A stretch of DNA of 64,000 bases from Bacillota bacterium (GTDB lineage: Bacteria > Bacillota > DTU025), in NCBI GenBank assembly GCA_050951805.1, contig JBMNJT010000004.1:64001-128000 (forward strand), in the 5' to 3' direction. The notes beneath the pieces are model-generated. The model ran no database searches. It had not been told where the DNA came from and saw only the letters and a list, made by a program, of their open reading frames with translations. A program made the translations under genes and the position numbers. How positions within the stretch are numbered: position 1 is the stretch's first letter; the number at the start of each line of letters is the position of its first letter. This document shows, in pieces, positions 6,435 to 40,063 of this stretch.

Positions 6435-7910
6435 ATGTTCAGAGAGGATACGATAGCGGCTATTGCCACACCTCCCGGAATTGGGGGGATAGCCGTAATC
6501 AGGATATCTGGTCCCGAAGCGAAAGATGTGGCCCAGCGTGTTTTTGTGCCTGCTCGGCCAGGTGCGGCGTCAGACGGCGCGGCTGGGCTGTATCCTATCC
6601 GAGGGTGGTTATGCAAGTACGGACACGTGCATGATGCCTCAGGGGAGCTAATAGACGAAGCGATAATGACCTGGATGCCCGGGCCCACATCTTATACTCG
6701 CGAAGATGTGGCTGAGATAAGTTGCCACGGAGGAACTGCTGTGGCGCGCGCGGTCCTCGAAGCTACTCTGAAGGCAGGTGCGCGCATTGCTCAACCAGGC
6801 GAGTTCACGCGGCGGGCGTTTCTGAACGGGCGGATCAGCCTTGAGCAGGCTGAAGCGGTGCTTTCCATGGTAAATGCCCGAACAGAGAGGGCTAGGAAAG
6901 CGGCCTCCTCATTTCTCGCCGGATCCCTTGGCGTGAAAGTGCGTGAAGCCGAAGAGAGCATCATTTCCCTGATGACGGTGATTGAGGCATCGCTCGATTT
7001 TCCGGAGGAGGATATACCCGACGTTGCGATGCAGGAGATTGCGGATGAATCGTCGCGGATCGCTGCCATGCTGGAGGAGGCGTGCCAGGAAGCATCTATG
7101 GGACGTCTGCTTTGGGAAGGGGCCTCTGTGGCCATAGTTGGAAGGCCTAATGTCGGGAAATCCAGGCTTCTTAACGCCTTGCTCAAGGAGGAGCGGGCTA
7201 TTGTGTCGGAATTGCCGGGGACAACGAGGGATGTGGTGTCTGAAGTTGCCAATATCCGCGGGATCCCTATAAGGTTGATAGACACAGCCGGAATGCGCGA
7301 TTCGGTCGATCCGGTGGAGCGAATCGGTGTTGAAAGGGCTAAGATAGCTCTGGCAGATGCCGACGTGGCACTTGCTGTTGTGGACGGGTCTGAGCCGCTC
7401 AACATGGCCGACGCGGAGATCGTGTCGCAGACACCGGAATCGCATACCATCGTCGTCGTAAATAAGTGTGACCTGGCTAACGTCATGGGCGATGAGGATG
7501 CGCGCCGAATCGCTGCCGGACGTCCTGTCCTCAGGGTTTCCGCGCTTACTGGCGAAGGGCTTGACAACTTGGAGGAGGCCATCGAGGCATTGGTGCTTGG
7601 GGATCGGGGTGCGGGTATAGCTGAGATTGGCGCGTTGGCCGGACAAGGGCTGCATGGCGGTCAAGCCGCAGATCAACGTGATGGGCTCGAAACAGAATCG
7701 GAAATGCTCGGCATGAGACGCGAAGATTGCTTGAGGCGCGCGGCACAATCCCTCAGAGATGTTGCCTGCGGCGTGGAGGAGAACATGCCGCCCGACATGC
7801 TGTCGATTGATTTGAGGTCGGCCCTGGATGCGCTGGGGGAGCTTACTGGCGAAACAACGAGAGAGGATATCGTGGATAGGATATTTGCCCAGTTTTGCGT
7901 CGGCAAGTAG
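6435..7910 (+). CDS. mnmE: tRNA modification GTPase MnmE
   Basis: DTIAAIATPPG, GRPNVGKS, DTAG, NKCD and C-terminal FCVGK. Confidence 0.98.
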   Translation: MFREDTIAAIATPPGIGGIAVIRISGPEAKDVAQRVFVPARPGAASDGAAGLYPIRGWLCKYGHVHDASGELIDEAIMTWMPGPTSYTREDVAEISCHGGTAVARAVLEATLKAGARIAQPGEFTRRAFLNGRISLEQAEAVLSMVNARTERARKAASSFLAGSLGVKVREAEESIISLMTVIEASLDFPEEDIPDVAMQEIADESSRIAAMLEEACQEASMGRLLWEGASVAIVGRPNVGKSRLLNALLKEERAIVSELPGTTRDVVSEVANIRGIPIRLIDTAGMRDSVDPVERIGVERAKIALADADVALAVVDGSEPLNMADAEIVSQTPESHTIVVVNKCDLANVMGDEDARRIAAGRPVLRVSALTGEGLDNLEEAIEALVLGDRGAGIAEIGALAGQGLHGGQAADQRDGLETESEMLGMRREDCLRRAAQSLRDVACGVEENMPPDMLSIDLRSALDALGELTGETTREDIVDRIFAQFCVGK

Positions 7911-34533: not shown

Positions 34534-34609
34534 GGGCCACTAGCTCAGGCGGTAGAGCACCGGACTTTTAATCCGGGTGTCGCGGGTTCGAGTCCCGCGT
34601 GGCTCACCA
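34534..34609 (+). tRNA. tRNA-Lys (UUU)
   Basis: 76 nt; GGGCCAC/GTGGCTC acceptor stem, anticodon loop CTTTTAA, GGTTCGA T loop, encoded CCA. Confidence 0.98.
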
Positions 34610-34676: not shown

Positions 34677-35318
34677 GTTCGCCCGGCATGGTTGTTGAGC
34701 CGATGGACTGAAAGAAGTCCTGTCACCCAACCAGCGGGAAGACAACCTCAAGGCAAGGGCGTCGCCGAAAGCGGCGGGGTCTGAAGGAAGCTTTAAGGGG
34801 GAACACGGAACGTAGCGAAAGCGAACCGAAGTTGGCCTGTCAGGTGGGTAACCTTGCGAAGTATGGGAAAGCCCGAAAGCTGGATAACCTGGGGGGTTGG
34901 GACGGACGGGTTCATGTTCAGGCAGACAAACTTAACCGGGGAAGCCCTGCATCATCCAGATAGCTGGTAAGCCCAAACAAGCGGAGACGCAAGGATGGGA
35001 ATATGTGGTGTGGGGTGGCAGATGAGTCCGTAGTAGTTATGAACCCTCAGCCCATGAAAGCTGGCAATAGACCGGAGGATAAAACTGAGGGGACAGCGGC
35101 CAGGAGTCGCTGGGCTGCATTGGCCAAAAGCCTATGCAGTTGCGAAGGGACGAAGGCAAACCAAAGCGTGCAACCTAGTTACAGGCAAGCATGGGAGAGA
35201 GATAACAGAGGCTGAAATGCCGATGGGAACGGGGGAGCCGGGGGCGACGAGTCTGCTGGTCCCTGCGCCCGCTCAGCAGAGTATCAAAGCCTGACAGGGT
35301 AGATTGCCTTTGAGCTAG
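34677..35318 (+). mobile_element. Group II intron copy 1, 5' fragment (ribozyme domains I-III, truncated at the ORF start)
   Basis: Starts GTTCGCCCGGCATGG; nearly identical to 37073-37699; no RT or domain V follows. Confidence 0.9.
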
Positions 35319-35488
35319 AGGCGCCTCGCAAGACCCTGGGAAGAGACCGAAGCCATGCAGGTGAGAAGCGAAGAAAGCGCTGTAGGATGAAGGGCCTCAT
35401 CAAATACGAGGTCGGCGTCTTGCGTTTCTTCAATGAAACGAAGCAACGAAGGTTTGCCAGTGGACACACTTGTTGAGCTGGCGATTCA

Positions 35489-35875
35489 TTACTCTAGCGA
35501 AGCTATGTGATTCTTGATAGCGATGCAGAAAGCCTTGGCGTTCTCCAACACTGAGTGGACGTCTGCATCCTCGATAGTGCGGACCGCACCGTAGTCGGCG
35601 AGATTGCGAAGATCAAAGGCCTCAAGGAAGTGCCGGTGAAGGGAGGCATCTAGGATCCCGGTCTTAACAAAGTGCTGCCCGAAAGCTGCAATTACGGCGG
35701 AGTGCTTGGAAAACGAAAGATCTCGGCTGAGCAGAAGTGCTTCTGCCGAGTAGAACATGGCATAGTATGCCCGGCCAACGGCGAATTCGGGAAACCCATG
35801 CGTGAATAGGTGCTCCGCTGCGGCAAGGCTGCGATCCGCCTTCACGAGCAGATCTGTTACATCCGGTGAGCTCAC
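35489..35875 (-). CDS. HEPN domain protein (toxin of MNT-HEPN pair)
   Basis: GRAYYAMFY, SKHSAVIAAFG, RNLADY. Confidence 0.9.
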   Translation of the reverse strand: MSSPDVTDLLVKADRSLAAAEHLFTHGFPEFAVGRAYYAMFYSAEALLLSRDLSFSKHSAVIAAFGQHFVKTGILDASLHRHFLEAFDLRNLADYGAVRTIEDADVHSVLENAKAFCIAIKNHIASLE

Positions 35876-36228
35876 AGCCTCACTCCCTCTTTGCGGACAT
35901 TGAGCAGAAAAGGCGTCTTGCCCGAACGGTACTCGTCGATTCCCATGGGGATCAAGGAGATTACCGTGTCGTATCGGAGGGACAGGTCAGCGATGGCCTC
36001 AGAATAGTGTCGTCTCTCACTAAGACCGCTACAGTCCTGAAGTAGAAGCACTAGATCGATGTCTGAACCCTGGACCGATGTGCCTTGGGCATGAGAACCG
36101 AAAAGCACAAGACCCAGGAAACGGTCGCCGTAGATCCCACGCAGCGTGGCTTCAATTTCGCGCACGATACCTTGGAGGCGAGGTGAGAGAGTGAATGACG
36201 GCCGAATAGCCTCAGTATCAGTGTTCAT
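35872..36228 (-). CDS. Minimal nucleotidyltransferase (MNT antitoxin)
   Basis: LFGSHAQG....SDIDL motif; 4-bp overlap with HEPN gene; AGGAG RBS. Confidence 0.9.
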   Translation of the reverse strand: MNTDTEAIRPSFTLSPRLQGIVREIEATLRGIYGDRFLGLVLFGSHAQGTSVQGSDIDLVLLLQDCSGLSERRHYSEAIADLSLRYDTVISLIPMGIDEYRSGKTPFLLNVRKEGVRL

Positions 36229-36812
36229 CTGGACCGCTCCTACATGTGTTGTCGGCACCATTATACCAGACTCATAGACACAAATGGTTCCACCTATCTG
36301 TCGCACCTGGGTACAGCATCGGGTCACGTCTTGTCATGTGGAGTACTGTGGGAGGTTGGAAGCTGGAGGGATTTCTGAATATGGGCCCAAATCCAATGGT
36401 TTCGTCGTATGTTCCCACTCCTGGGGCGAGCGGCGCGGCTGAGCTGGGGTTTGCTGAATTGTTCAGGATGGTCGTCCCACCGGCCCTGATAGGCTTGGCT
36501 GTCGCCCGCTGGCGGCTGCGTACCTACTATTTCACTCTGCTTGTGGGGGGCACTTTGACCTTGGGTCGGCAGGGGATGAGGGATGAATTCTGGGCGGGGG
36601 TGCAGCAGATGATACTCGTGGAGGTATTATGATTGGGGGACGATTTCGTAGATCCGTAGAGGAAATGGATATGTAATGTAGTATGTATTATATTTAAGGC
36701 AGTGGAGCCACATTTATGTCAAATGCTTACGCAATGCTGCTTTGGTTTTGCTGTTGTGTAGGCACCATATTGCTTGCAATTTGGAAGGAGTGCTGTATAC
36801 GCAAAGTCCTAC

Positions 36813-36980
36813 CGCGGACCTCAAAGGATGCCGATTTCTCCGGGAGGTTCGCGCAAGCCATCTAGCTTGGGTAACAGTGTTTGTTACTCGGACACAAGCC
36901 TAAGAGGACTAGCTTTTCAGAGAGGTTCGCGGAACCAGGCTCAAAAGCCCAGGTAAATCGGCGGATTTTTTGGATACTGT
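36813..36980 (+). promoter_or_regulatory. Type I-C-like CRISPR leader
   Basis: CGCGGACCTC(36813) and GAGGTTCGCG(36844) inverted pair plus a second GAGGTTCGCG(36922), a layout I recognise from type I-C leaders; abuts the first repeat. Confidence 0.7.
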
Positions 36981-37072
36981 GTCGCACCCCATGCGGGTGC
37001 GTGGATTGAAACCCAAACCTGTGGAATACAAGCGTGGAAGGCCCAAGTCGCACCCCATGCGGGTGCGTGGAT
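36981..37072 (+). CRISPR. Orphan type I-C CRISPR mini-array: one full repeat, one 34-bp spacer, one intron-interrupted repeat
   Basis: GTCGCACCCCATGCGGGTGCGTGGATTGAAAC (36981-37012), spacer 37013-37046, first 26 nt of the same repeat at 37047-37072; no cas genes in the window. Confidence 0.9.
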
Positions 37073-38895
37073 GTTCGCCCGGCATGTTTGTTGAGCCGAT
37101 GGACTGAAAGAAGTCCTGTCACCCAACCAGCGGGAAGACAACCTCAAGGCAAGGGCGTCGCTGAAAGCGGCGGGGTCTGAAGGAAGCTTTAAGGGGGAAC
37201 ACGGAACGTAGCGAAAGCGAACCGAAGTTGGCCTGTCAGGTGGGTAACCTTGCGAAGTATGGGAAAGCCCGAAAGCTGGATAACCTGGGGGGTTTGACGG
37301 ACGGGTTCGTGTACAGGCAGACAAACTTAACCGGGGAAGCCCTGCATCATCCAGATAGCTGGTAAGCCCAAACAAGCGGAGACGCAAGGATGGGAATATG
37401 TGGTGTGGGGTGGCAGATGAGTCCGTAGTAGTTATGAACCCTCAGCCTATGAAAGCTGGCAACAGGCCGGAGGATAAAACTGAGGGGACAGCGGGAGTCG
37501 CTGGGCTGCATAGGCCAAAAGCCTATGCAGTTGCGAAGAAACCAAAGCGTGCAACCTAGTTACAGGCAAGCATGGGAGAGAGATAACAGAGGCTGAAATG
37601 CCGATGGGAACGGGGGAGCCGGGGGCGACGAGTCTGCTGGTCCTTGTGCCCGCTCAGCAGAGTATCAAAGTTTCGCGGGGTAGATTGCCTTAGAGCTGCA
37701 TACAGGGCCGTCAGGGCCAACAACGGGGCTTCCGGGATAGACGGTGAGACCGTGGACGCCTTCGGCGAGAACCTGGAAGCCAGGCTGGCAGAGATACCGA
37801 AGCCAGACGGAAGCAAAAGGCCGCTTGGCATACCCACCGTTGGCGACAGAGTAGTGCAGCAAGCGCTGCTCAATGTGGTTCAGCCAATCTTCGACCCCGA
37901 ATTTCATCCATCGAGCTATGGGTACCGACCCGGGCGATCCTGTCATCAAGCAGTGGCAAAGGCAGAGAGGTTCATTAATCGCTACGGTCTCAAGCACGTA
38001 GTGGACATGGACTTGTCAAAATGCTTTGACCGACTCGATCATGACCTGATCATTGAGTTTGTGAACCGCAAGGTCAGCGACGGAAGCGTACTTAAGCTGA
38101 TCCGGAAGTTCCTTGAAGCAGGAGTCATGAAAGACGGGGCCTGGGAGGAAACAACCATAGGCAATCCGCAAGGCGGAGTAATATCGCCTCTTTTTGCCAA
38201 CATCTATCTTGACTACTTTGATCAAAAGATGAAGTCAAAGGACATCAGGATAGTGAGGTACGCTGACGATATACTCATCTTTGCGCGGACAAAGCGACAG
38301 GCGGAAAAGTTCTTGGAGATAGCGTGCGAGATCCTTGAGGGCGAGTTAAAGCTCGTTGTGAACAGGGATAAAACGCACATAACCAGCGTCTATAAGGGAG
38401 TGCCCTACCTTGGGTTTGTCATATACCCCAAGAAGCTGGCGAAGTTCAAGGACGCCGTCCGCAAGCTGACTCCCCGCAATCATGGGATGAGTGTTGAGCA
38501 GATGGTGAAGCGACTCAACCGATTCCTTATTGCGAACTGCAAGACGATAGTAGCCAGCCTGATGGGGTGGATAAGGCGGCGTCTGAGGATGAAGCAGATG
38601 GGGGAGTGGAAGAGCTGGAGGGGCCTGCATAAAGCACTTCGAAGGCGAGGCTACTCAGGCGAATTCCTCAAGATATCCATGAGACGATGGAGGAACTCGG
38701 CAAGTCCTCTGGTCAACATGGCGCTTCCTCAGGCTTGGTTCAGTGAGATAGGACTGATTGGCCTCACGAAGTATGAGGTCGTTTCCTATGAAGCGAAGTG
38801 ACTAAGGTTTGCCAGGAGCCGTGCACGGGGCCCGTACGCACGGTTCTGTGAGAGGGATGACGCCAGGCTGATCACCTGGCGCCACCCTACTCGAT
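37073..38895 (+). mobile_element. Group II intron copy 2 (IIC-like), both ends present
   Basis: 5' GTTCGCCCGGCATG; domain V GAGCCGTGCACGGGGCCCGTACGCACGGTTC (38816-38846); 3' end ACCCTACTCGAT. Confidence 0.93.
37644..38801 (+). pseudogene. ltrA: Intron-encoded reverse transcriptase/maturase, no endonuclease domain, degenerate
   Basis: GIDG, IPKPDGSKRPLGIP, SYGYRPGRS, PQGGVISP, YADD present; damaged N-terminus and several conserved segments missing. Confidence 0.85.
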
Positions 38896-38924
38896 TAAGT
38901 TACCTTCAGGTTAGTTATGACCTT

Positions 38925-39822: not shown

Positions 39823-40063
39823 GTGCCGATTCCTCCTGTGTCTGCCAGATAGGCGGTCGTAAGCATTTCAGCGGCTATGCGTTGCAATTGCCCATGCGGG
39901 GCGTTCTACTTAATGATACAGCAAATACGAGTCAAACCGCCACATACGTTTGAAGGCTCCTTCGGATTGCCCAGGCCCAATGGAATCTGGGCCTTTTCTT
40001 TGCTCAGGATCGGAGGTTAGATCTATCTGCCCAGGCCGTCATCGCGCTCAATCGAGACCAATG

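What the first reader, a model, noticed from the sequence alone, without database searches (positions are those of the whole stretch)
36813..37072. Orphan type I-C mini-array whose only spacer appears to be a piece of cas4 (anti-cas spacer)
Seen: leader, a full 32-bp I-C-type repeat and one 34-bp spacer, CCAAACCTGTGGAATACAAGCGTGGAAGGCCCAA, which in frame 3 reads K-P-V-E-Y-K-R-G-R-P; no cas gene lies in the 64 kb. Knowledge: PVEYKRG(K/R)PK is the conserved RecB-like ExK nuclease motif of type I-C Cas4, and orphan arrays with anti-cas spacers are known for E. coli type I-F. Inference: the spacer was taken from a I-C cas4. It may have forced loss of the host's own cas operon, may now turn an incoming I-C Cascade against its own genes, or may act as a regulatory crRNA. 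A 5'-TTC PAM would make the upstream codons NTT-CCC (hydrophobic-Pro), which fits the xPxPVEYK context of Cas4. I know of no described I-C equivalent.
Basis: partly seen in the sequence, partly recalled or inferred. Interest (0 to 1): 0.9.

Follow-up and report, generated by a model that had tools for sequence, protein, structure and literature searches.

The report
Orphan CRISPR array aimed at cas4
A leftover one-spacer type I-C CRISPR array, in a bacterium that no longer has the matching cas genes, carries a spacer copied from the cas4 gene of that same kind of CRISPR system, much like the known "anti-cas" arrays of E. coli.

Summary
Window 36811-37072 holds a leader, an exact 32-nt type I-C repeat, one 34-nt spacer and the first 26 nt of a second repeat. 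The spacer matches cas4 at 33 of 34 bases, next to a 5'-TTC, in a metagenomic type I-C locus (L133) where 68 of 71 repeat copies are identical to the window's repeat. An unconstrained genome scan gave 31 of 34 with TTC as its best hit. The window's own genome (97% complete) has a type I-B system but no I-C Cas5c, Cas8c or Cas4. A same-genus genome keeps the same repeat with an intact I-C operon. About 20 nt of the cas2 3' end survive upstream of the leader, so the operon was deleted. RNA-library contigs from two studies cover the leader and first repeat. The target cas4 occurs in a metagenome that also holds the array. This is a type I-C counterpart of the E. coli I-F orphan anti-cas arrays. 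Whether it caused the cas loss, blocks re-acquisition, or is now inert is inferred, not shown.

The parts
36666..36694 (+). Promoter-like site (TGGATA-17-TATATT) in the AT-rich stretch upstream of the leader
   Evidence: 1 site found against 0.8 expected by chance, so weak on its own. In one search, RNA-library contigs from two studies begin at 36712 and 36715, with no cover at 36500-36711, although the DNA runs do cover that part.
36787..36811 (+). Remnant of the last ~20 nt of cas2, marking the right-hand edge of the deletion that removed the cas operon
   Evidence: the alignment with the cas2 3' ends of L133, G001, L055 and L128 shows 15 of 18 bases matching L055 before the stop-codon position. 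Nothing upstream of about 36786 is alignable.
36811..36980 (+). Type I-C CRISPR leader of the post-cas2 kind
   Evidence: homologous to the leaders that follow cas2 in L133 (125 of 172 leader columns), G001:C131 (53 of 69) and L055.
36981..37012 (+). Full 32-nt type I-C repeat
   Evidence: Identical to 68 of 71 repeat copies in L133 and to 13 copies in same-genus G001. Both of those sit beside I-C operons.
37013..37046 (+). Single 34-nt spacer that matches the sense strand of I-C cas4 at the KPVEYKRGRPK motif
   Evidence: 33 of 34 to L133 and L131 with a 5'-TTC, the only mismatch being position 20, a synonymous third codon base. No other copy in the own genome at 8 or fewer mismatches.
37047..37072 (+). 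First 26 nt of the second (terminal) repeat, with the hairpin intact
   Evidence: 100% identical to repeat 1 over 26 nt. The intron begins at the next base.
37073..38895 (+). Group II intron of the IIC kind (RT/maturase ORF 37644-38801), on the same strand as the array
   Evidence: RF02001 at 37157-37326; RF00029 at 38814-38895. (RVT_1 and GIIM domains); 12 5' junctions in the genome all follow a hairpin, and 11 of 12 flanks fold at -15 kcal/mol or lower, against 10% of 300 random 45-mers.
38896..38901 (+). TAAGTT, probably the degenerate 3' end of the terminal repeat (inference)
   Evidence: With the intron removed, repeat 2 ends ...GGATTAAGTT. The terminal repeat of L133 array 1 ends ...GGAGTAAATT. 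No other homology downstream.

Best explanation
[quoted passage not shown] The spacer was acquired at a 5'-TTC PAM from the cas4 gene of the cognate I-C system, meaning the same repeat family, either the host's own operon or a near-identical one. A type I-C Cascade loaded with this crRNA would recruit Cas3 to cas4. Type I-C self-targeting is known to be survived through large two-sided deletions around the target, and here that would remove the operon and leave the array. Without Cas5c and Cascade the transcript is inert. If a cognate I-C operon enters the cell, its own proteins should process this crRNA and be guided against its own cas4, so the array would act as an anti-cas guard like the E. 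coli I-F CRISPR4 arrays. A IIC group II intron later inserted 5 nt past the expected crRNA cleavage site, using the repeat hairpin as a stand-in for a terminator hairpin. Shown: the anatomy, the spacer's origin and PAM, the absence of I-C cas genes, the cas2 remnant, and the coexistence of the target in the habitat. Weakly indicated: transcription. Inferred: the causal link to cas loss, crRNA processing, and interference.
For: Spacer origin. Its best hit was L055 at 31 of 34, the only row with 5'-TTC, inside a cas3'-cas5-cas8c-cas7-cas4-cas1-cas2 operon. The next best hit was 28 of 34. The metagenome scan returned 7 loci at 33, 33, 32, 31, 31, 29 and 26 of 34. All mismatches in the six best loci are third codon positions.

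Cognate system. L133 is I-C by NCBIfam: Cas5c, Cas8c/Csd1, Cas7/Csd2, Cas4 and Cas1c all score above their cut-offs. 68 of its 71 repeats are identical to the window's. The end of the L133 contig is 100% identical over 62 nt to an IS-like element of the own genome.

Orphan status. There are no Cas5c, Cas8c or I-C Cas4 hits in the own genome (completeness 97%). Same-genus G001 has the identical repeat (13 copies) and an I-C operon 82% identical to L133's.

Deletion. A cas2 3' remnant survives.

Published support. I-C self-targeting gives bi-directional deletions (passages of 10.1101/860999). TTC is an interference-proficient I-C PAM (passage of PMC8916207).

Expression. RNA-library contigs from two studies cover 36712/36715 to 37008/37010 and nothing upstream.

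Ecology. DNA run X7 holds the leader and first repeat of the array. It also holds a contig in which the spacer sequence is flanked by cas4 sequence with TT before the C. The repeat itself is at very high depth there. The 511-nt locus is held at half or more of its sampled words in 14 runs from 9 studies, 2 of which may be the source of this assembly.

Precedent. Orphan E. coli I-F arrays with cas-matching spacers interfere with plasmids carrying I-F cas genes (passage of review PMC8616872).
Against: No test shows processing or interference. The host's own former cas4 sequence is unknown. The only same-genus cas4 available (G001) matches at just 28 of 34 and has TAC rather than TTC, so the source may have been a foreign operon.

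By synteny with G001, the ancestral array position is on contig C2 (own C2:15339-15552, a decayed leader plus a repeat with 5 mismatches). The window's locus instead lies in a 5.4-kb segment between tRNA-Lys and window position 40060. That segment is not collinear with G001, and how the locus got there is unresolved.

The leader is only about 73-77% identical to functional leaders, which fits decay. The terminal repeat is interrupted by an intron, and splicing was not shown. The RNA evidence is contigs from RNA libraries, which the tool itself rates a weak hint. Contigs break at the repeat, so the spacer's presence in the other samples was not directly seen. One spacer allows no statistics on spacer content.
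Confidence: 0.6

Rival explanations
1. Ordinary immunity against a foreign element. The host still had its own I-C system, whose cas4 differed at this site. It took the spacer from an incoming L133-type I-C operon carried on a plasmid or ICE. The later loss of the host's cas genes was unrelated.
For: The same-genus cas4 (G001) differs at 6 of 34 positions and has TAC instead of TTC, so such a host could carry the spacer safely. Spacers against cas genes of other elements are reported as common in archaea (passage of PMC3383453). The window's leader is equally distant from the L133 and G001 leaders (76.8% each over 69 columns).
Against: This needs a second, independent event to remove the operon, and that event must end inside cas2 right next to this array. 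The array holds only this one spacer. L133 shares the exact repeat and a 100% identical IS end with the own genome, which points to a close relative rather than a distant donor.
Confidence: 0.2
2. Inert fossil. The spacer's origin is as described, but the locus no longer does anything and cannot, because the terminal repeat is broken by the intron and the leader has decayed.
For: An intron sits in repeat 2. The leader has diverged. A second I-C remnant on C2 is visibly decaying, with 5 of 32 repeat mismatches. P. aeruginosa has many cas-less arrays with no anti-cas role (passage of PMC4669384).
Against: Repeat 1 and the first 26 nt of repeat 2 are still identical to the functional consensus. 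By my recollection of Cas5d processing, 21 nt plus 11 nt, the intron lies 5 nt beyond the expected cleavage point. RNA-library contigs cover the leader and repeat 1.
Confidence: 0.15
3. Counter-defence mini-array carried by a mobile element. The element brought the anti-cas4 spacer in order to make the host's own I-C system destroy itself.
For: The locus lies in a 5.4-kb variable segment next to tRNA-Lys, together with a HEPN/nucleotidyltransferase pair and a gene fragment. A viral contig carries a solitary exact copy of this repeat.
Against: The segment has no integrase, phage or transfer gene. The cas2 remnant shows descent from a cas locus by deletion. The repeat-spacer junction gave 0 hits in viral contigs.
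Confidence: 0.04
4. Regulatory crRNA that tunes cas4 or cas operon expression.
For: crRNA-like regulators of cas genes exist in other systems (recalled, not checked here).
Against: The genome has no I-C cas genes to regulate. The match is full-length with a functional PAM, which means cleavage rather than partial-match repression.
Confidence: 0.01
5. Antiviral spacer against a phage Cas4-like nuclease, or a chance resemblance.
For: Some phages encode Cas4-like nucleases (recalled).
Against: The peptide-level pattern gave 0 hits in viral contigs. The phage collection gave only E=4 matches in an RNA polymerase gene. The best matches all lie in I-C operons. Chance best matches in non-cas4 loci were 17-20 of 34.
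Confidence: 0.01

Closest known systems
Orphan CRISPR4 (type I-F) arrays with anti-cas spacers in E. coli (Almendros et al. 2016, Nat Microbiol 1:16081). I did not read this paper. I know it from a passage of the review PMC8616872 and from reference lists.
   Same: A small array whose cognate cas genes are gone from the genome. The spacer's best match is a cas gene of the same subtype in related strains. The array is expressed. The proposed roles are the same: it caused the cas loss and blocks re-acquisition.
   Different: The subtype is I-C, not I-F. The host is an uncultured digester/bioreactor bacterium, not E. coli. The target is cas4. There is a single spacer. The terminal repeat carries a group II intron. 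Interference was shown experimentally in E. coli and not here.
'Anti-CRISPR' spacers matching cas genes (Touchon and Rocha 2010, PMC2886076, seen only as a search listing) and cas-targeting spacers in archaea (passage of PMC3383453).
   Same: Spacers directed against CRISPR-Cas genes, read as a defence against incoming CRISPR-Cas systems.
   Different: Those spacers mostly sit in arrays of hosts with active systems. Here the array is orphan and the target belongs to its own repeat family.
Type I-C self-targeting with Cas3, which gives large bi-directional deletions (Csorgo et al. preprint 10.1101/860999, passages).
   Same: A TTC-flanked genomic protospacer plus I-C Cascade-Cas3 selects survivors that have lost the target and its surroundings. 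This fits an operon deletion ending about 1.7 kb from the target, inside cas2.
   Different: That was an engineered system in Pseudomonas. There, loss of the spacer by repeat recombination was also a common escape route, and it did not happen here.
Degenerate cas-less I-F arrays of P. aeruginosa (PMC4669384, passage).
   Same: CRISPR arrays that persist without cognate cas genes.
   Different: Those 84 strains are reported to have no cas-targeting spacers. This array's only spacer targets cas4.
Group IIC introns that insert after intrinsic terminators or at integron attC sites (passage of PMC4424553; abstract of PMC1702495 in the listing).
   Same: The RT has no En domain hit (RVT_1 and GIIM only). 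Insertion is a few nt after a GC-rich hairpin at all 12 5' junctions.
   Different: Here the hairpin is that of a CRISPR repeat, at two loci in the genome. Two literature searches turned up no description of CRISPR repeats as IIC targets.

Membership tests
Type I-C CRISPR array | Repeat identical or near-identical to repeats that flank an operon with the I-C signature genes Cas8c/Csd1, Cas5c and Cas7/Csd2 | tested here: met
   The window repeat equals 68 of 71 repeats in L133. The L133 operon scores above the NCBIfam cut-offs for TIGR01863, TIGR01876, TIGR02589 and TIGR03640.
Type I-C CRISPR array | A leader upstream of the first repeat, homologous to the leaders of functional arrays | tested here: met
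   about 73-77% identity to the post-cas2 leaders of L133 and G001.
Type I-C CRISPR array | At least two repeats separated by a spacer of typical length (33-37 nt) | tested here: met
   start-to-start spacing 66, spacer 34 nt. The second repeat is present for 26 nt before the intron.
Orphan anti-cas array (E. coli I-F CRISPR4 kind) | No cognate cas genes in the genome | tested here: met
   tblastn with 7 I-C proteins from L055 and 7 from L133 hit only the I-B locus. The genome is 97% complete in 8 contigs. The PF09709 search was uninformative because its control matched nothing in any genome.
Orphan anti-cas array (E. coli I-F CRISPR4 kind) | The spacer's best match is a cas gene of the cognate subtype in related strains | tested here: met
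   33 of 34 to the cas4 of L133 and L131; 31 of 34 to L055 in the unconstrained scan.
Orphan anti-cas array (E. coli I-F CRISPR4 kind) | The protospacer is flanked by an interference-proficient PAM | tested here: met
   L055 has 5'-TTC with no PAM constraint in the search. The 7 metagenome loci also have TTC, but there the search pattern forced it. TTC is active in a studied I-C system (PMC8916207 passage). The PAM of this particular system was not derived.
Orphan anti-cas array (E. coli I-F CRISPR4 kind) | The array is transcribed without its cas genes | tested here: inconclusive
   RNA-library contigs from two studies cover 36712/36715 to about 37010 and nothing upstream. Contigs cannot show strand, level or ends with confidence.
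Orphan anti-cas array (E. coli I-F CRISPR4 kind) | It interferes with DNA that carries the cognate cas genes | not testable with these tools
   Needs transformation or conjugation assays.
Group IIC intron | Group II ribozyme domains plus an RT/maturase ORF | tested here: met
   RF02001 at 50.8 bits and RF00029 at 44.2 bits, both above their gathering scores. RVT_1 and GIIM domains.
Group IIC intron | Inserts a few nt downstream of terminator-like hairpins rather than at a long homing site | tested here: met
   12 of 12 5' flanks contain a hairpin ending 0-7 nt before the intron. 11 of 12 fold at -15 kcal/mol or lower, against 10% of random 45-mers. The 3' flanks are unrelated to one another.
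Group IIC intron | Placement in the class C clade by RT or ribozyme phylogeny | not tested
   No tree was built.

The most novel reading that the evidence does not exclude
A widespread anaerobic-digester bacterium keeps a one-spacer type I-C array as a working 'vaccine' against the I-C CRISPR-Cas system that circulates in the same communities. This would make anti-cas orphan arrays a general strategy across subtypes and phyla rather than an E. coli curiosity. In addition, a IIC group II intron family treats CRISPR repeat hairpins as insertion sites. It is seen at two loci here, and a related strain has an intact copy at the second locus. That would be a third class of IIC target after terminators and attC sites.
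Probability: 0.3. Interest if true: 0.72.

Novelty: new member of a known kind. Interest (0 to 1): 0.6.

Why it matters
Anti-cas orphan arrays have so far rested mainly on one experimentally studied case, E. coli type I-F. A type I-C example in an unrelated, environmentally abundant bacterium would suggest the pattern is general: CRISPR systems are lost through self-targeting, and the leftover array then polices re-entry of the same system. This example has the exact cognate repeat, a working PAM, a deletion scar inside cas2, signs of transcription, and the target present in the same habitat. It bears on why CRISPR-Cas is so patchily distributed among close relatives. It also gives a concrete pair, this array and the L133-type operon, for testing the idea. 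The intron in the repeat hairpin adds a possible new interaction between retroelements and CRISPR arrays.

Tried and rejected
Searches that gave nothing useful:
- Spacer against the phage collection: only E=4 matches in an Achromobacter phage RNA polymerase gene, which is chance level.
- Spacer at 3 or fewer mismatches in 60 relatives: none.
- Window repeat in the genome that holds L055 (G061): none at 3 or fewer mismatches. This is a MAG, and arrays are often unassembled.
- PF09709 (Csd1) in the own genome: no hit, but the control matched nothing in any genome, so the result says nothing. I replaced it with tblastn.
- The two spacer-like stretches of the C2 remnant against all loci and the own genome: only chance matches of 10-15 nt.
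- 71 type I-B spacers of the own genome against the I-C operons: only two 16-nt chance hits.
- 97 I-C spacers from L133, G001, L128, L129 and L132 against the own genome: none.
- L133 array 1 against phages, to derive this system's PAM: only a repeat-like array in one unannotated record. The PAM therefore rests on the literature.
- Folding repeat-spacer-repeat as RNA: the two repeats pair with each other, z-score -0.97, uninformative.
- Repeat-intron junction in the 20 other genomes of the order: none. These assemblies are fragmented, so this is not evidence of absence.
- Read laying: no contig bridged repeat-spacer-repeat or the empty intron site. Parts without cover say nothing either way. 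Intron splicing could not be assessed.

Ideas considered and set aside:
- Recombination between intron copies split one ancestral locus into the C4 and C2 remnants. Against this, the C2 intron remnant is much older (84% identity, against 93-100% among the other copies). The question stays open.
- The type I-B system uses this crRNA. The repeats differ apart from the GAAAC end, and this is not testable here.

Supplementary files of papers were not opened. The supplements of PMC4669384 and 10.1101/860999 may hold more on cas-less arrays and on deletion boundaries.

Full report
THE OBSERVATION

Window 36981-37012 is an exact 32-nt repeat (GTCGCACCCC...GGATTGAAAC). The next 34 nt, 37013-37046, are unique. 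Positions 37047-37072 repeat the first 26 nt of the repeat without a mismatch.

A group II intron begins at 37073. Rfam places group II domains at 37157-37326 (RF02001, 50.8 bits) and 38814-38895 (RF00029, 44.2 bits). The ORF at 37644-38801 has reverse-transcriptase and maturase domains.

THE LEADER AND THE DELETION SCAR

The 170 nt before the first repeat align with the sequence that follows cas2 in confirmed I-C loci. The homology runs about 20 nt into the 3' end of cas2 (15 of 18 bases against L055) and then stops. So this is not a free-standing mini-array. It is the downstream end of a cas locus whose operon was deleted, with the break inside cas2.

WHERE THE SPACER CAME FROM

The own genome has no second copy of the spacer at 8 or fewer mismatches. 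None of 60 relatives has it at 3 or fewer.

A BLAST against the plasmid collection hit two Neisseria gonorrhoeae records at 28 of 32. The hit lies in a cas4-like ORF reading ...KPVEYKRGKPK....

I then scanned one genome per species for DNA encoding KPVEYKRG[K/R..]P[K/N], with no constraint on the flanks (the scan stopped at its 120-locus limit, so more exist).
- All 120 loci showed the motif in a Cas4-like frame, nearly all with the downstream ...QLCAQ... context. I did not run an HMM on each.
- The best DNA match was L055 at 31 of 34, the only row preceded by TTC. The next best was 28 of 34.
- L055 is a contig from a Bacillota MAG carrying cas3'-cas5-cas8c-cas7-cas4-cas1-cas2.
- The same pattern found nothing in 2.9 million viral contigs.

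A metagenome scan that required TTC plus the peptide returned 7 loci. The PAM is therefore forced in these 7. Two loci, L133 and L131, match at 33 of 34. The single mismatch is at spacer position 20, a synonymous third codon base outside the PAM-proximal end. The others match at 32, 31, 31, 29 and 26. For comparison, chance best matches in non-cas4 loci were 17-20 of 34.

THE COGNATE SYSTEM

L133 (12.7 kb) is laid out as array, cas3, cas5c, cas8c, cas7, cas4, cas1c, cas2, leader, array. NCBIfam scores Cas5c, Cas8c/Csd1, Cas7/Csd2, Cas4 and Cas1c above their cut-offs.

68 of its 71 repeat copies are identical to the window's repeat. Its second array is interrupted by an element whose first 62 nt are 100% identical to an IS-like element of the window's genome. 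So L133 comes from a close relative, or at least from the same gene pool.

The sister species G001 (same genus) has 13 identical repeats and an I-C operon 82% identical to L133's. Its Cas4 is 86% identical to L133's. At the protospacer, however, G001 has 28 of 34 and TAC instead of TTC.

ORPHAN STATUS

tblastn with the seven I-C proteins of L055 and of L133 found only a type I-B locus on contig C2 (cas3, cas7, cas1 and cas2 at 26-33% identity). There was nothing for Cas5c, Cas8c or I-C Cas4.

The I-B locus has its own Cas4, with a different motif, and an array of 73 repeats of a different sequence. The genome is 97% complete in 8 contigs.

GENOMIC SETTING

The window is collinear with G001 up to the terminator hairpin of tRNA-Lys (window 34676) and again from about 40060. 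The 5.4 kb in between holds:
- a truncated intron copy
- a HEPN/nucleotidyltransferase pair
- the C-terminal fragment of an LPG-synthase-like gene
- the array with its intron
- a B3_4-domain gene

No integrase or phage gene is present.

A second, older I-C remnant lies at own C2:15339-15720. It has a leader at 67-71% identity and a repeat with 5 mismatches. A decayed intron 3' end follows, directly abutting TGAAAC, the last six bases of the repeat. That site is syntenic with the array of G001 contig C184. How the window's fragment came to lie beside tRNA-Lys is unresolved.

THE INTRON

The genome has at least 12 5' junctions of this intron family. Every one follows a GC-rich hairpin by 0-7 nt. 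11 of 12 flanks fold at -15 kcal/mol or lower, against 10% of random 45-mers. The 3' flanks are unrelated to one another. This is the behaviour described for IIC introns (PMC4424553 passage).

In the array the hairpin is the repeat's own stem (GCACCC/GGGTGC), and the intron sits after ...GTGGAT. With the intron removed, the repeat would end GGATTAAGTT. That resembles the degenerate terminal repeat of L133 array 1 (GGAGTAAATT).

By my recollection of Cas5d processing (21-nt 3' handle, 11-nt 5' handle), the intron lies 5 nt beyond the cleavage site. If that is right, the single crRNA could still be matured. This is inference.

EXPRESSION AND ECOLOGY

The 511-nt locus is held at half or more of its sampled words in 14 digester or bioreactor DNA runs from 9 studies. 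Two of these runs may be the source of the assembly.

Four runs were laid.
- DNA contigs of X5 and X7 reproduce 36500-37012 with 0-1 differences and then break at the repeat.
- RNA-library contigs of X15 and X16, from different studies, begin at 36712 and 36715 and run to about 37010. They give no cover at 36500-36711. The tool rates this pattern a weak hint of a transcript start.
- A promoter-like site lies at 36666-36694.
- X7 also holds a contig in which the spacer sequence is flanked by cas4 sequence (...ATGGATT before it, ...GATGATCGCGATAAGGTGCAGCT after it). So the target gene and the orphan array occur in the same community.
- X15 shows the C2-type junction (intron end followed by TGAAAC) with an intact intron.

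MECHANISM

Shown:
- The spacer is a copy of cognate I-C cas4 next to TTC.
- The I-C cas genes are gone.
- The deletion ends inside cas2.

From the literature:
- TTC is an active I-C PAM (PMC8916207).
- I-C self-targeting is survived through large bi-directional deletions around the target (10.1101/860999).
- In E. coli I-F, orphan arrays with cas-matching spacers block plasmids that carry the cas genes (PMC8616872).

Inferred: acquisition of this spacer led to, or accompanied, the loss of the operon, and the array would now turn an incoming L133-type system against its own cas4.

The main rival is that the spacer was taken from a foreign operon while the host's own cas4, divergent like G001's, was safe from it. 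A second rival is that the locus is now inert. A regulatory role and an antiviral origin are effectively excluded.

NOVELTY

Two full-text searches for anti-cas or cas-targeting spacers (20 and 27 papers) showed E. coli I-F, archaeal and general reports. No type I-C orphan example appeared in what I read, which was passages of five papers and the listings of the rest. I file this as a new member of a known kind.

CRISPR repeats as IIC intron targets did not appear in two searches.

Noticed in passing
L168 3630-3661 (viral contig, minus strand): An AT-rich 17.9-kb viral contig carries one exact copy of the window's 32-nt I-C repeat. The same 15-nt sequence flanks it on both sides. This is a solitary repeat unit in a phage and could be an RNA anti-CRISPR decoy or the seed of a mini-array.
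   Followed up: partly
own genome C2:15339-15720 (L004 about 7340-7721): A second, decayed I-C remnant: a leader at 67-71% identity and a repeat with 5 of 32 mismatches. A decayed intron 3' end follows, directly abutting TGAAAC, the last six bases of the repeat. It is syntenic with the I-C array of same-genus G001. An RNA-run contig shows the same junction with an intact intron.
   Followed up: partly
window 34677-35460: A truncated copy of the same group II intron, with no RT ORF and no domains V/VI. It sits right after the terminator hairpin of tRNA-Lys (34534-34609). The same site in G001 has no intron.
   Followed up: partly
own genome, 12 sites (for example C7:29455/29456): The intron family has at least 12 5' junctions and many internally deleted copies (positions 1-625 joined to 1685-1823). 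One copy is inserted directly after the 3' end of another, in tandem. The same back-joint, 38892 to 37070, appears in DNA and RNA run contigs.
   Followed up: partly
window 35489-36327 (minus strand): A HEPN-domain gene and a nucleotidyltransferase gene overlap by 4 nt. This is a typical HEPN/MNT toxin-antitoxin pair, and it lies inside the variable segment.
   Followed up: no
window 36246-36632: This ORF matches only the last ~50 positions of the LPG_synthase_TM profile (250-302 of 302), so it is a 5'-truncated gene fragment just upstream of the array. A homologous stretch lies elsewhere in G001.
   Followed up: no
own genome C2:136000-152839: An apparently intact type I-B locus with a 73-repeat array (repeat GTTTATAGACTACCTATGAGGGATGGAAAC). 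None of its 71 spacers matches the I-C operons collected here.
   Followed up: partly
L133 12624-12707; own C8:194632 and C2:459144: The second array of L133 is cut inside a spacer by an IS-like element of about 1.9 kb. The element has two copies in the window's genome, and one is 100% identical over the 62 nt available.
   Followed up: partly
L133 1764-1793 and L154 16542-16571: One spacer is shared at 28 of 30 between the metagenomic L133 array and the array of same-genus G001. This suggests common array ancestry or a shared target.
   Followed up: no
L006 (NZ_CP119140.1, 2537-3186 of the locus): A 2.17-Mb Neisseria gonorrhoeae record filed as a plasmid in the plasmid collection holds unannotated cas1-like and cas4-like ORF pieces in different frames. 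They look like a decayed I-C adaptation module.
   Followed up: no
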